Virus record (IMG/VR): IMGVR_UViG_2534682108_000003
Coordinates: 1 to 33,127 of that record
DNA: 33,127 nucleotides
Strand: one strand, 5' to 3'
Source of the DNA: a virus
Taxonomy: Duplodnaviria; Heunggongvirae; Uroviricota; Caudoviricetes
Shown: piece by piece, positions 29,247-30,414 of the stretch
How positions within the stretch are numbered: position 1 is the stretch's first letter
How the letters are laid out: every line of letters begins with the position of its first letter
Program-made: the position numbers and the translations under genes
The notes under the pieces: model-generated
The model's database searches: none
Told to the model about the DNA's origin: nothing
The model's input: only the letters and a program-made list of their open reading frames with translations

Positions 29247-29547
29247 TATTTGTGCTCCGTTTATCCGTTAAAAGGGATATCAGTTAAGTTATCCCGTGTA
29301 GGGTATAAGCCATTGTCGAGACCACTCATTGAATGGTCTCTGCAATAACCGATGTCTTTCCATCAGTCCGCCACCACAAAGAATCTTTTTTGCCATAAGG
29401 CAGGAGGTTCATCTTTCAGTGGCTGCCAGTGTTATTTCCCCACTTTCTGGCTTGGGTTGTTTCGCTGTACTGCCGTAACTGGTTTCCCAGAATAAATTCT
29501 GGTTTCATTATCAAGCCCACCCGTAGATAGGCTTTGTAATGACATCT

Positions 29548-30072
29548 TCAATTAATCAGCAGTTCAGGCTGTGTCACCTGCAAGATGTATTCATGCTCGA
29601 CAGCCAGGACACGCTTCTCTTTCTTCCGTTCGTTCATTAACCGACTGCCGATCGTACCTTTCAGCTTTGAGCGTGTTTCTTTGATGGCGTAGCGGTGCTG
29701 CATTTCTTCGCCAATTGCCATGCGGCGGCTCAGTTGCTCTGCCATCCAGTTGAATGCTGCGATATAGCTCTCCTTGATTGCCGCAGCAGCTTTCCCGGTG
29801 AACCCCATCACAACCATGATCCAGCCATCTTTCGTCAGGCTGTACATCGGGCGAACCTTGCCCTGCTCATCGATATAATCAGCCGACGCAAAATTGCGTT
29901 GGCTAAACTCACGCGAGCAATCAGCCTTAACCTGCTCGATTTTCCTGAGAACATCACCGTGTCGCTTGCCGAAGTACTTGGCAATTTTTCTGGATGTGGT
30001 AACGACCTCTCCGTTTTTGGCTTGCACCATTTCTCGGAAGTCGAAGGCTGGAATAACTGAATGATTATTCAT
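29548..30072 (-). CDS. phage regulatory protein Rha-like
   Basis: ATG at 30072 (MNNHSVIPAFDFREMVQAKNGEVVTTSRKIAKYFGKRHGDVLRKIEQ...), N-terminus as I recall for Rha family; the track ORF to 30315 begins with TTG and is rejected. Confidence 0.55.
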   Translation of the reverse strand: MNNHSVIPAFDFREMVQAKNGEVVTTSRKIAKYFGKRHGDVLRKIEQVKADCSREFSQRNFASADYIDEQGKVRPMYSLTKDGWIMVVMGFTGKAAAAIKESYIAAFNWMAEQLSRRMAIGEEMQHRYAIKETRSKLKGTIGSRLMNERKKEKRVLAVEHEYILQVTQPELLIN

Positions 30073-30414
30073 AGCGTCTTTACCTTTTAGAAAGTGAGCC
30101 TGTCTCACAGAAAAGCCGCCCGAGAGAGGTCGCCACCTATAACGGCATTTCTCAGGCTCGCTTACTGAAAGGCTCTCGTTAATATGCGCGTGAGATGCGC
30201 TGTGAAATTCAGATATAAAAATCCCCGCGAATGCGAGGCTAAATCCTGGTATTTGTAATAAACTGGCTCTTATCTCAACGCAGCCCCTTACCGCGCGCCA
30301 GATGCTCAACTTCAAGCATCAGCAATGAGATGTTTAATCTGGATTCACTCCAGAAGTGATCACCACCCTGTCTACAGAGCCAGATGTGAAGGATGATGAG
30401 TAAAATTATCGCTA

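What the first reader, a model, noticed from the sequence alone, without database searches (positions are those of the whole stretch)
29247..30414. Rha gene and two structured non-coding regions between the lysis cassette and the terminase genes
Seen in sequence: a Rha-like gene (29548-30072) sits where lambdoid phages usually have the packaging site directly after Rz. It is flanked by about 340 bp (30073-30414) containing a short inverted repeat GTGAG-CCTGT-CTCAC and a segment resembling the complement of the lambda cos core (AGGTCGCC at about 30128-30135, not an exact match), and by about 300 bp (29247-29547) containing a 7-bp-stem hairpin GAGACCA-CTCATTGAA-TGGTCTC (29318-29340) with no T-run. 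Inference: one of these regions is the pac or cos site and Rha is a moron inserted beside it.
Basis: partly seen in the sequence, partly recalled or inferred. Interest (0 to 1): 0.35.

Follow-up and report, generated by a model that had tools for sequence, protein, structure and literature searches.

The report
Rha gene slot, not packaging site
The DNA around the Rha gene is not the phage's packaging site but a swap-in slot for accessory genes, flanked by two conserved RNA hairpin elements, one of which buries the gene's ribosome-binding site and is absent from the RNA family catalogue.

Summary
The sequence features are real and the Rha call is correct. The reading that one flank is the pac or cos site is not supported.

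- **Cos-like segment:** a 10-of-12 match at chance level. It forms the tip of an RNA stem that covaries in relatives.
- **Terminase:** headful type, not lambda type.
- **Mosaic flanks:** both flanks are made of short blocks shared with P22-like, HK97-like and phi80 phages that use unrelated terminases.
- **Phage Gally:** it carries the same blocks, and its pac was mapped experimentally inside termS.
- **Relatives of this terS:** loci with TerS proteins up to 96% identical have no homology upstream of the start codon.

What is there, on the minus strand:
- a doubtful 50-codon ORF;
- an intrinsic terminator;
- a small G+C hairpin;
- a 104-nt leader hairpin that pairs the rha Shine-Dalgarno sequence. 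It has 74 homologues in 68 sources, 30 of 33 pairs show compensatory change, and it has no Rfam match;
- Rha;
- two copies of a conserved 36-nt hairpin ending GAYAAUG.

The leader ends within one base of the start codon of interchangeable genes: Rha, KilA-N, Bro-N, ANT, T5orf172 or HNH. The pac site is most likely inside terS, which is inferred and not shown.

The parts
30275..30427 (-). 50-codon ORF overlapping the last 13 bases of Rz. It sits in a present-or-absent block (about 30252-30422). Coding status is doubtful.
   Evidence: It matches phrog_11822 over its full length (E 8.6e-38). It is annotated as a hypothetical protein in Sf6 (gp65) and in RefSeq E. coli. The block is absent in L005, L007 and L008. 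Across 26 variants there are 13 synonymous and 74 non-synonymous codon differences, which is not a clear coding signature.
30213..30238 (-). Intrinsic terminator: CCUCGC-AUUC-GCGGGG followed by AUUUUUAUAU.
   Evidence: It is the only minus-strand terminator-like site found in 28600-32700. It is homologous to the annotated 'putative rightward transcription terminator' between Rz and rha in phi80. A G+C stem with a T-run is present at this place in most homologues, even where the sequence differs.
30186..30200 (-). Small G+C-rich hairpin or palindrome, GCGCAUCUCACGCGC, 8-12 nt upstream of the leader hairpin.
   Evidence: It is present upstream of nearly all leader copies. Its sequence varies but stays palindromic (GCGCGUCGCAGCGC, GUGCAUAGCACGCAC, GCGCCUCGCACGCGC, GCCUGUCGUACGGC). 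It is predicted in the minimum-free-energy fold. Its role is unknown; it could be an operator lying between weak promoter hexamers, or an RNA hairpin.
30074..30177 (-). Conserved 104-nt leader hairpin with 33 base pairs. Its basal 3' arm, AAAGG (30083-30087), is the rha Shine-Dalgarno sequence paired with CCUUU (30169-30173).
   Evidence: Covariance model R1 scores 131.4 bits on the sense strand and 23 bits on the antisense strand. It finds 74 matches at E <= 1e-6 in 68 sources. In their alignment 95.4% of cells are paired and 30 of 33 pairs show changes on both sides. There are 176 compensatory cells against 27.8 in shuffles (0 of 500), and slid controls are 36-51% paired. Divergent variants folded independently give the same shape. 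There is no Rfam match.
29548..30072 (-). rha gene (174 aa), an exchangeable ORF within conserved flanks.
   Evidence: It matches Pfam PF09669 (E 2.2e-28) and phrog_518, Rha-like transcriptional regulator (E 4.3e-78). It is about 79% identical in DNA to phi80 rha. It is replaced from start to stop by other genes in relatives.
29506..29541 (-). 3' hairpin, copy 1: CAUUACAAAGCCUAUC-UACG-GGUGGGCUUGAUAAUG. It starts 6 nt after the rha stop codon.
   Evidence: The motif has 85 instances in 30 sequence variants in the fetched loci. In an alignment of 21 variants, 99.7% of cells are paired and 6 of 14 pairs are compensatory, against 26-49% paired in slid controls. It is retained whatever ORF lies upstream.
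29348..29505 (-). Empty gene slot: the upstream sequences of a Gp49-family gene that is absent here. It includes the hairpin CCAGAAUUUAUUCUGG (29487-29502).
   Evidence: In Sf6 (gp66) and E. coli E423 a 381-bp Gp49-family gene plus 33 bp lies exactly between window positions 29351 and 29349. Recurrent breakpoints fall at 29483/29493 and 29503-29506. The small ORFs here match no PHROG family.
29311..29347 (-). 3' hairpin, copy 2: UAUUGCAGAGACCAUUC-AAU-GAGUGGUCUCGACAAUG.
   Evidence: Read from the sequence, it has the same architecture as copy 1: an outer stem, a CA/GA internal loop, an inner stem and a GAYAAUG end. It matches exactly in 18 loci. The GAGGCCA variant keeps pairing only through G-U on the sense strand. 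It follows the stop codon of the Gp49 gene where that gene is present. Recombination joints cluster at 29294-29350.
29247..29310 (-). Shared translation-initiation block, with the Shine-Dalgarno sequence GGAG 8 nt before the terS ATG. The same block precedes DUF2560 (hkbM) genes in P22-like and HK97-like phages.
   Evidence: Homology with 73-99 of 105 loci, and with Sf6, HK620, CUS-3 and HK022, ends at 29238, nine bases into the ORF.
28656..29246 (-). Small terminase gene (Terminase_2 family). It is the most likely location of the pac site, which is an inference. The first 30 codons are unusually conserved at the DNA level.
   Evidence: It matches Pfam PF03592 (E 5.9e-40). Where the amino acid is the same, the codon is also the same in 86% of cases for codons 1-10, against about 30-75% elsewhere (55 homologues at 60-85% amino-acid identity). 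Loci whose TerS is 40-50% identical still match 29149-29246 at 87-94%. An HNH endonuclease gene is inserted in codons 1-12 in six relatives, with a recoded terS 5' end.
27182..28708 (-). Large terminase gene, of the headful type by homology.
   Evidence: It matches Pfam Terminase_6N and 6C. It is 79.5% identical to Pantoea phage PA-1, 50% to Aaphi23 and S1249, and 38% to PY100. Aaphi23 and PY100 package by the headful mechanism (PMC10269795; PMC8583763).

Best explanation
The interval 29247-30414 is an accessory-gene region between the lysis cassette and the headful-type terminase genes of a lambdoid prophage. It is not a packaging site.

Reading along the minus strand it contains:
- a doubtful 50-codon ORF;
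- an intrinsic terminator that stops transcription not modified by the Q antiterminator;
- a small G+C hairpin;
- a conserved 104-nt RNA leader hairpin;
- the rha ORF;
- a conserved 36-nt hairpin ending GAUAAUG;
- a second slot that has lost its gene;
- a second copy of the 3' hairpin;
- a shared ribosome-binding block joined to terS.

What is shown:
- The two hairpin families are conserved sense-strand RNA structures with compensatory changes.
- The leader ends within one base of the start codon of whichever gene fills the slot.
- The ORF between them is swapped among Rha, KilA-N, Bro-N, ANT, T5orf172 and HNH genes.

What is inferred:
- The leader pairs the Shine-Dalgarno sequence (AAAGG with CCUUU) and so holds down translation of these potentially harmful DNA-binding or nuclease proteins. 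The stem would be opened, or cut by a double-strand-specific RNase, during lytic growth.
- The conserved flanks serve as the homology through which ORFs are exchanged between phages.
- Packaging starts at a pac site inside the terS-terL module, most likely in terS.
For: **Gene calls:**

**Mosaic structure and exact ORF replacement:**

**Leader hairpin:**
- The inverted repeat has 20-nt arms.
- RNAalifold predicts 35 pairs, 9 of them with compensatory change.
- A covariance model gives 74 hits. They include diverged copies in Erwinia, Brenneria, Xenorhabdus, Phytobacter, Orbus and Symbiopectobacterium, and second copies within one genome.
- 30 of 33 pairs covary, against 13.1 in shuffles and 5-11 in slid controls.
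- The sense strand scores 131 bits and the antisense strand 23 bits, and G-U pairs are abundant.
- Divergent variants fold the same way on their own.
- The leader-to-ATG offset is 0 +/- 1 nt in nearly all hits.
- The downstream genes are diverse.

**3' hairpin:**

**Terminator:**

**Against a packaging role:**
- The cos match is at chance level.
- The terminase is of the headful type.
- terS homologues have unrelated upstream DNA.
- Gally carries the same blocks, and its pac maps inside termS.
Against: - No transcription start or RNA end is known here. No consensus sigma-70 promoter was found, so it is unresolved whether rha has its own promoter or relies on read-through from the late promoter.
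- Shine-Dalgarno occlusion is read from predicted structure only. The basal stem is A-U rich and may breathe, so the hairpin could mainly stabilise or process the mRNA.
- The covariance counts come from an alignment fitted to the model, which favours the structure.
- The closest relatives of this terS (91-99% DNA identity: L057, L058, L075, L076, L078, L079, L089, L099) all keep the proximal 80-100 bp (29247-29327/46). A contribution of that block to packaging in this particular lineage is therefore not excluded.
- The pac position in this phage is not measured.
Confidence: 0.72

Rival explanations
1. The block just upstream of terS (29247-29349, including the reader's hairpin) is part of the pac site. 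This would resemble SPP1, whose Terminase_2-family small subunit binds pacL upstream of gene 1 and pacR inside it.
For: TerS belongs to the Terminase_2 family. From my own knowledge, SPP1 G1P belongs to the same family and SPP1 pac spans the promoter region and the 5' end of gene 1. The closest terS relatives (91-99% DNA identity) all keep 29247 to about 29327.
Against: The same block precedes DUF2560 genes in dozens of P22-like and HK97-like phages with unrelated terminases. In Gally it lies more than 400 bp and two genes upstream of termS, and pac was mapped inside termS. L059 (TerS 96% identical), L062, L063 (both 90% identical), L068 and L102 have unrelated DNA right up to the start codon. 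The hairpin is a second copy of a motif that also follows rha. G-U variants point to RNA rather than duplex DNA.
Confidence: 0.07
2. The segment at 30127-30138 is a lambda-like cos site, or a remnant of one, cut by terminase to give cohesive ends.
For: AGGTGGCGACCT on the minus strand matches the lambda cohesive-end sequence GGGCGGCGACCT at 10 of 12 positions and is itself a small palindrome.
Against: A match this good is expected by chance: 2 were found against 1.28 expected. The terminase is not of the lambda Nu1/A type. The same sequence sits upstream of rha in phi80, whose real cos lies about 1.8 kb further on. The segment varies through compensatory changes (UGGUGGCGACCA, AGCUGGCAAGCU), as a stem tip does.
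Confidence: 0.01
3. The leader hairpin is real, but its main role is not to block translation. It may be an RNase III processing site that separates lysis and rha messages, or a 5' stem-loop that stabilises the message.
For: It has about 23 nearly continuous base pairs in the outer and middle stems, a length typical of RNase III substrates. It lies directly after a terminator and a possible weak promoter, TTCACA-16-TATTAA at about 30180-30207 (read), so it would be near a 5' end. The basal pairs that cover the Shine-Dalgarno sequence are weak A-U pairs.
Against: The Shine-Dalgarno region is inside the stem in all divergent variants, with compensatory changes such as CCUAUA/UAUAGG. The distance to the start codon is fixed to within 1 nt. 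That precision is what a translation-linked element needs and is not required of a processing or stability element. The roles are not mutually exclusive.
Confidence: 0.25
4. The conserved flanks act at the DNA level as recombination or homing target sites for cassette exchange, comparable in logic to integron attC sites, rather than as RNA elements.
For: ORFs are exchanged exactly between the flanks. Several fillers are nuclease-type genes, HNH_3/AP2 and T5orf172. Recombination joints cluster at the hairpins. An HNH gene has demonstrably invaded the conserved terS 5' end in relatives.
Against: Many pairs are G-U, which would be mismatches in a DNA cruciform or on the opposite strand. The model score is strongly strand-asymmetric. 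The element includes the Shine-Dalgarno sequence and abuts the start codon. No recombinase is associated with it. Ordinary homologous recombination in conserved flanks explains the exchange without a dedicated site.
Confidence: 0.08

Closest known systems
Late-region accessory genes of P22-like phages and phi80 (rha / KilA-N / gp66 / hkbM cluster between Rz and the terminase genes or cos)
   Same: The position after Rz/Rz1 is the same. The rha gene is about 79% identical in DNA to phi80 rha. The terminator, the 50-codon ORF and the spacer blocks are the same, at 90-99% identity to Sf6, HK620, CUS-3, Sf101, epsilon34 and Gally.
   Different: Here the array is joined directly to a Terminase_2 / Terminase_6N / DUF1073-portal packaging module of a myovirus-type prophage, with no close DNA match in the phage collection. 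The joint falls within the first three codons of terS. The Gp49-family and DUF2560 genes are missing.
Morons in the sense used by Hendrix and colleagues (extra genes flanked by their own promoter and terminator)
   Same: The gene is present, absent or replaced between otherwise conserved neighbours. It is not needed for the lysis or packaging functions on either side.
   Different: The terminator lies upstream of the gene, not downstream. The downstream hairpin has no U-run. No consensus promoter was found. The unit that moves is the bare ORF between conserved RNA-forming flanks.
Leaders that hide the Shine-Dalgarno sequence, such as RNA thermometers, the lambda N leader / RNase III site, and the translationally inactive isrK-anrP mRNA of Gifsy-1 (all recalled from my own knowledge)
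   Same: A long 5' hairpin pairs the ribosome-binding site of a phage regulatory gene. The stem is long enough for RNase III.
   Different: There is no sequence or model match to any Rfam 15 family. It is one portable leader serving many unrelated ORFs. The trigger that opens it is unknown.
pac sites of headful phages (P22 gene 3, Sf6 gene 1, SPP1 pacL-pacC-pacR, Gally termS)
   Same: The phage has a headful-type terminase, so a pac site must exist near these genes.
   Different: In Gally they are not the packaging start.

Membership tests
lambda-type cos site | A 12-nt cosN core (GGGCGGCGACCT) matched better than chance | tested here: not met
   The match is 10 of 12. Two such matches occur in the window against 1.28 expected, and 38 of 100 shuffles do as well.
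lambda-type cos site | A cognate lambda-type terminase (Nu1 / gpA) encoded next to it | tested here: not met
   TerS matches PF03592 (Terminase_2) and TerL matches PF03237/PF17289 (Terminase_6N/6C).
lambda-type cos site | A core sequence held constant among relatives | tested here: not met
   The core varies by compensatory changes as an RNA stem tip. In phi80 the same segment is 1.8 kb from the true cos.
pac site of a headful phage | A headful-type large terminase | tested here: met
   TerL is 50% identical to Aaphi23 and 38% to PY100. Both are reported as headful packagers with permuted genomes (PMC10269795, PMC8583763). This rests on homology only.
pac site of a headful phage | The site is inherited together with its cognate small terminase gene | tested here: not met
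   Homology of about 50 terS loci starts within 5 bases of the ATG. L059, with TerS 96% identical, has unrelated upstream DNA. The flagged blocks occur with unrelated terminases.
pac site of a headful phage | Packaging series initiates there, shown by virion DNA ends | not testable with these tools
   There are no virion reads for this phage. In Gally, which has the same blocks, initiation maps inside termS (PMC9928086).
Rha family regulator (Pfam PF09669) | A domain match above the curated threshold | tested here: met
   99.1 bits against a cut-off of 29.9, E 2.2e-28, covering residues 25-111. It also matches phrog_518 at E 4.3e-78.
Rha family regulator (Pfam PF09669) | Blocks phage growth in hosts lacking IHF (the original rha phenotype in phi80 and P22) | not testable with these tools
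   The phenotype is recalled from my own knowledge and from the phi80 annotation note, 'DNA synthesis inhibition in IHF- hosts'. IHF consensus sites are at chance level in the window.
Moron (autonomous extra gene) | Presence, absence or replacement polymorphism between conserved neighbours | tested here: met
   Rha is exchanged with KilA-N and other genes. The Gp49 gene and the 50-codon ORF block are each present or absent.
Moron (autonomous extra gene) | Its own promoter upstream and its own terminator downstream | tested here: inconclusive
   There is no consensus promoter on the minus strand, only a weak candidate, TTCACA-16-TATTAA. The terminator is upstream (30213-30238), and the downstream hairpins lack a U-run.
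Cis-regulatory leader that hides the ribosome-binding site | A conserved secondary structure supported by compensatory changes | tested here: met
   30 of 33 pairs show changes on both sides and 95.4% of cells are paired. No shuffle of 500 reaches the observed values, and slid controls are 36-51% paired. Caveat: the alignment was fitted to the model.
Cis-regulatory leader that hides the ribosome-binding site | Shine-Dalgarno sequence inside a stem, at a fixed distance from the start codon | tested here: met
   AAAGG pairs with CCUUU in the fold and in the model, and equivalent pairings occur in divergent variants. The start codon lies 0 +/- 1 nt after the model end in nearly all 71 hits.
Cis-regulatory leader that hides the ribosome-binding site | Expression changes when the stem is opened or closed | not testable with these tools
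   This needs reporter fusions and structure probing.
Any Rfam 15 family | A covariance-model match at E <= 1 | tested here: not met
   Only the two tRNAs match in 28600-32700, on either strand.

The most novel reading that the evidence does not exclude
The 104-nt leader (with its small upstream hairpin) and the 36-nt GAYAAUG hairpin together form a previously undescribed pair of RNA elements. They bracket a hypervariable gene slot in temperate phages across Enterobacterales and Orbales. The leader would be a true riboregulator that keeps anti-repressor-like and nuclease genes (Rha, KilA-N, Bro-N, ANT, T5orf172, HNH) translationally silent until a specific signal opens it. That signal could be RNase III, temperature, a host factor such as IHF acting indirectly, or a phage protein. 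If so, one shared switch controls a whole class of mobile phage genes.
Probability: 0.35. Interest if true: 0.55.

Novelty: new member of a known kind. Interest (0 to 1): 0.33.

Why it matters
For the finding as written, the result is corrective. Hairpins and a cos look-alike next to terminase genes should not be annotated as packaging sites. In this widely shared region they are RNA-level features of an accessory-gene slot.

The by-product has some value of its own. A strongly covarying leader absent from Rfam precedes at least six different families of Rha / KilA-N / Bro / ANT / endonuclease genes in lambdoid phages of many genera, including phi80, Sf6-like phages and Gally.

These genes are common, often toxic and poorly understood. 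A shared translational control element would give a direct experimental handle on when they are made. It would also explain how unrelated ORFs are swapped so precisely, from start codon to stop codon, between phages.

Tried and rejected
- **Rfam scan** of 28600-32700 at E <= 1 found only the tRNAs.
- **Promoter scan** found no consensus minus-strand promoter near rha or terS. The -35 and -10 positions read by eye are not conserved across leader copies, so an own promoter remains unproven.
- **IHF consensus search** gave 37 matches against 42.75 expected. One 1-mismatch site lies at 30054-30066, inside rha codons 3-6, and carries no weight.
- **MAFFT plus RNAalifold on 27 diverse leaders (A2)** recovered only 15 pairs because the outer arms were misaligned. 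I replaced this with a covariance-model alignment.
- **Small ORFs in 29247-29547** (35, 34 and 39 aa) match no PHROG family, and one of them spans the Gp49 insertion point. I treat them as non-coding.
- **The 50-codon ORF** has a family match, but the synonymous to non-synonymous pattern does not support coding. I left it as doubtful.
- **The 14-nt inverted repeat in terS codons 4-14** (29205-29218 / 29224-29237) was considered as a pac candidate. Pairing is not kept in the L065-type variant (read), so it was not pursued.
- **Cassette-end hairpins** were not found after every filler gene.
- **Papers:** the Aaphi23, PY100 and Casjens & Gilcrease papers could not be read. The headful assignment therefore rests on secondary citations. 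Literature searches for an rha or KilA-N leader found nothing relevant.
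Full report
**Layout.** All genes in this part of the window are on the minus strand. In the direction of transcription the order is:
- Q antiterminator, 32122-32610
- tRNA-Asn and tRNA-Thr, 31875-32030
- holin, 31309-31632
- lysozyme, 30849-31325
- Rz, 30415-30852, with Rz1 inside it
- the interval in question
- small terminase, 28656-29246 (Pfam Terminase_2)
- large terminase, 27182-28708 (Terminase_6N/6C)
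- DUF1073-type portal, 25647-27182

Further on lie Mu-F-like, capsid, DUF3383 (496 aa), tape-measure-like and baseplate genes. An integrase next to tRNA-Arg(CCT) marks the end of a prophage.

**Checking the observation.**
- The Rha call is correct. The ORF at 29548-30072 matches Pfam Phage_pRha (E 2.2e-28).
The hairpin is exactly at 29318-29340, the small inverted repeat is at 30094-30108, and AGGTCGCC is at 30127-30134.
- Two corrections are needed. First, the upper interval is not purely non-coding. It contains a 50-codon ORF (30275-30427) that overlaps the end of Rz, is annotated in Sf6 and RefSeq E. coli, and matches phrog_11822. However, 74 non-synonymous against 13 synonymous differences among 26 variants do not look like a protein under selection.
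- Second, the cos resemblance is no better than chance. The lambda 12-mer with two mismatches occurs twice in the window against 1.28 expected.

**The region is a mosaic shared with phages that use other terminases.**
- Megablast finds the Rz-to-terS interval at 90-99% identity in 339 phage records. These include Sf6, HK620, CUS-3, Sf101, epsilon34, Gally and phi80. The match always stops at window position 29238-29241, nine bases into terS.
- The 60 bp just upstream of terS also occur near the right end of HK022 and several HK97-like phages.
- The terminase and portal genes themselves have no close DNA relative in the phage collection.
- Pairwise comparison with eight annotated loci, and then with 128 loci found through the TerS protein, shows recurrent joints. 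They fall at 29238-29251, 29294-29350, 29483/29493, 29503-29506, 29541/29554, 30066-30080, 30240/30252 and 30422.
- The rha ORF is replaced from start codon to stop codon by a KilA-N gene in one E. coli prophage.
- A Gp49-family gene (Sf6 gp66) sits exactly between positions 29349 and 29351 in Sf6 and E. coli E423.
- The block carrying the 50-codon ORF is missing in three loci.

**Why neither interval is the packaging site.**
1. The large terminase is 50% identical to those of Aaphi23 and S1249 and 38% to that of PY100. These phages are reported to package by the headful mechanism with permuted genomes, and PY100 starts from a pac site (PMC10269795; PMC8583763). A cohesive-end site is therefore not expected.
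2. About fifty loci with homologous terS genes lose all similarity to the window within five bases upstream of the ATG. They include L059 with a 96% identical protein and L062 and L063 with 90% identical proteins. A recognition site for such similar proteins should lie in the part they share.
3. Phage Gally contains the whole upper interval (30025-30900 at 95.4%, leader identical) and three blocks of the lower one. Its packaging start was located from virion read coverage inside termS (PMC9928086).
4. The cos-like segment changes in relatives by paired substitutions (AGGU...ACCU to UGGU...ACCA or AGCU...AGCU), which is the behaviour of a stem and not of a cleavage site.

One caveat remains. 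The closest terS relatives (91-99% DNA identity) all keep 29247 to about 29327. A local contribution of that block in this lineage therefore cannot be excluded by comparison alone, and I give it 7%.

**The upper interval (30073-30414).**
- After the 50-codon ORF comes an intrinsic terminator: stem 30223-30238 followed by AUUUUUAUAU. It is the only such site on this strand in 4 kb and is homologous to the terminator annotated between Rz and rha in phi80.
- Next is a small G+C palindrome (30186-30200). It is kept in almost every relative, with varying sequence.
- Then comes a long imperfect hairpin (30074-30177). The repeat finder reports its arms as 20 nt, 85% complementary and 50 nt apart.
- Its tip is the cos-like palindrome. 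Its base pairs CCUUU with AAAGG, the rha Shine-Dalgarno sequence, 10 nt before the ATG.

Evidence that the long hairpin is a conserved RNA structure:
- A 24-sequence alignment gave 35 predicted pairs, 9 of them with compensatory changes.
- A scan of viral contigs with a 17-base pattern brought in further loci. Together with those already held, this gave 58 distinct true variants.
- Divergent variants folded independently adopt the same architecture with different sequences. For example, UUUAGUGAUAUAGCCUG pairs with CAGGCUCUAUCACUAAA in L218.
- A covariance model built from seven near-identical seeds found 74 matches at E <= 1e-6 in 68 sources. These include second copies within one genome and diverged copies in Erwinia, Brenneria, Xenorhabdus, Phytobacter, Orbus and Symbiopectobacterium prophages. 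In phi80 a second copy lies upstream of the N15 gp59-like gene.
- On that alignment 95.4% of cells are paired and 30 of 33 pairs change on both sides. There are 176 compensatory cells against 27.8 in shuffles (0 of 500), and slid controls are only 36-51% paired.
- Many pairs are G-U, and the antisense strand scores 23 bits against 131. The structure therefore belongs to the sense RNA.
- The alignment was fitted to the model, which inflates such counts. The independent folds and the MAFFT-based result point the same way.
- Nothing in Rfam 15 matches, and literature searches found no description.

It competes with the conserved long stem and is lost in the common GCGAAC variants.

**What the leader precedes.**
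- In nearly all 71 hits the start codon begins 0 +/- 1 nt after the end of the model.
- The proteins that follow belong to many families: several Rha types, several KilA-N types (some with ORF11CD3 or P63C tails), Bro-N, ANT/KilAC, T5orf172/MUG113, HNH_3 with AP2, and proteins with no Pfam match.
- The conserved unit is therefore the leader, and the ORF is the variable filling.

**The lower interval (29247-29547).**
- As minus-strand RNA it folds much better than shuffled sequence (z = -5.99).
- Six bases after the rha stop codon is a 36-nt hairpin, CAUUACAAAGCCUAUC-UACG-GGUGGGCUUGAUAAUG (29506-29541).
- The same motif occurs 85 times in 30 variants in the fetched loci. Its stems differ in sequence but stay complementary, for example AAGGCGCAU/GUGCGCCU and AAAGGCCACC/GGUGGCCUU. 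In 21 variants 99.7% of cells are paired and 6 of 14 pairs are compensatory.
It has the same design: an outer stem, a CA/GA internal loop, an inner stem and a GACAAUG end.
- Where the Gp49-family gene is present, its stop codon abuts this second copy. In the window the gene slot between the two hairpins is empty.
- The small ORFs in this stretch have no family match.
- The last 64 bases carry the GGAG ribosome-binding site. They are the same block that precedes DUF2560 genes in P22-like phages.

**How it most likely works.**

Shown:
- Both hairpin families are conserved sense-strand RNA structures.
- The spacing from the leader to the start codon is exact.
- ORFs are exchanged between the flanks.
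- A terminator stands upstream.

Inferred:
- In a lysogen the terminator blocks stray transcription. After induction, Q-modified polymerase reads through and rha is transcribed with the late genes. A weak own promoter is also possible, and the candidate TTCACA-16-TATTAA is not conserved.
- The leader limits translation by pairing the ribosome-binding site until the stem is melted or cut.
- The 3' hairpins protect or delimit message segments.
- The conserved flanks provide the homology by which ORFs move between phages.

I put 0.72 on the overall reading and about 0.55 on ribosome-binding-site occlusion as the main function of the leader. A processing or stability role is the chief alternative.

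**Where pac probably is.** By elimination, and by analogy with Gally, pac should lie in the terS-terL module. From my own knowledge the same holds for P22, Sf6 and SPP1.
- The first 30 codons of terS are unusually conserved at the DNA level. Where the amino acid is the same, the codon is also the same in 86% of cases for codons 1-10, against roughly 30-75% elsewhere.
- Loci with only 40-50% identical proteins still match 29149-29246 at 87-94%.
- This may reflect an embedded site, a recombination linker or translation signals. I could not distinguish these.
- The imperfect inverted repeat there is not kept in a diverged group.

**Verdict.** The moron idea is supported and the pac or cos idea is not. 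The region as a whole is a known kind of late-region accessory cluster. The leader and the 3' hairpin appear to be undescribed RNA families of a familiar kind.

Noticed in passing
L060:2502-2999, also L077, L090, L091, L095, L096; corresponds to window 29210-29246: In six relatives a 165-aa HNH-type endonuclease ORF is inserted within the first 12 codons of terS. It uses the original terS start (MAKLTDKQELFA...). It is followed by a terS whose 5' end is recoded with many silent or near-silent changes (TTGAAACAGCTCACACCTAAGCAGGAACTGTTCTGC...). This is the pattern expected of a homing endonuclease that has protected its own target site.
   Followed up: partly
window 29149-29246 (terS codons 1-33): The 5' end of terS is far more conserved at the DNA level than the rest of the gene, even between phages whose TerS proteins are only 40-50% identical. 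It contains a 14-nt imperfect inverted repeat (29205-29218 / 29224-29237). This could be a pac element, a recombination linker or a homing target.
   Followed up: partly
window 28759-28797 (inside terS): A mosaic joint lies inside terS. Many loci share the N-terminal 150-164 residues at 85-96% identity but have a different C-terminal tail and a different, longer large terminase (for example L005 and L008, annotated 'TerL protein', 540 aa). This fits a DNA-binding part and a TerL-binding tail being exchanged separately.
   Followed up: no
window 13778-14848 (-), with 13442-13762 (+): A 356-aa ORF with a P63C domain, a domain otherwise seen on KilA-N / anti-repressor-type proteins, sits among the tail genes next to a short opposite-strand ORF. 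It looks like another accessory insertion. No copy of the leader RNA precedes it.
   Followed up: partly
window 3424-4817: tRNA-Arg(CCT) at 3424-3498 is followed by a tyrosine integrase gene (3624-4817, + strand). The integrase gene directly abuts the tail-fibre end of the prophage and points towards it. That is not the usual lambda arrangement, in which int lies at the opposite prophage end from the tail genes. It may belong to a neighbouring or remnant element.
   Followed up: no
L003 (phi80) 800-887; L251, L137, L225, L031, L014, L093: Several phage genomes carry two or three copies of the leader hairpin, each in front of a different gene. In phi80 the second copy precedes the N15 gp59-like gene near cos.
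   Followed up: partly
window 31875-32030: tRNA-Thr(TGT) and tRNA-Asn(GTT) genes lie between Q and the holin gene. The arrangement is the same as in Sf6 and phage 21.
   Followed up: no
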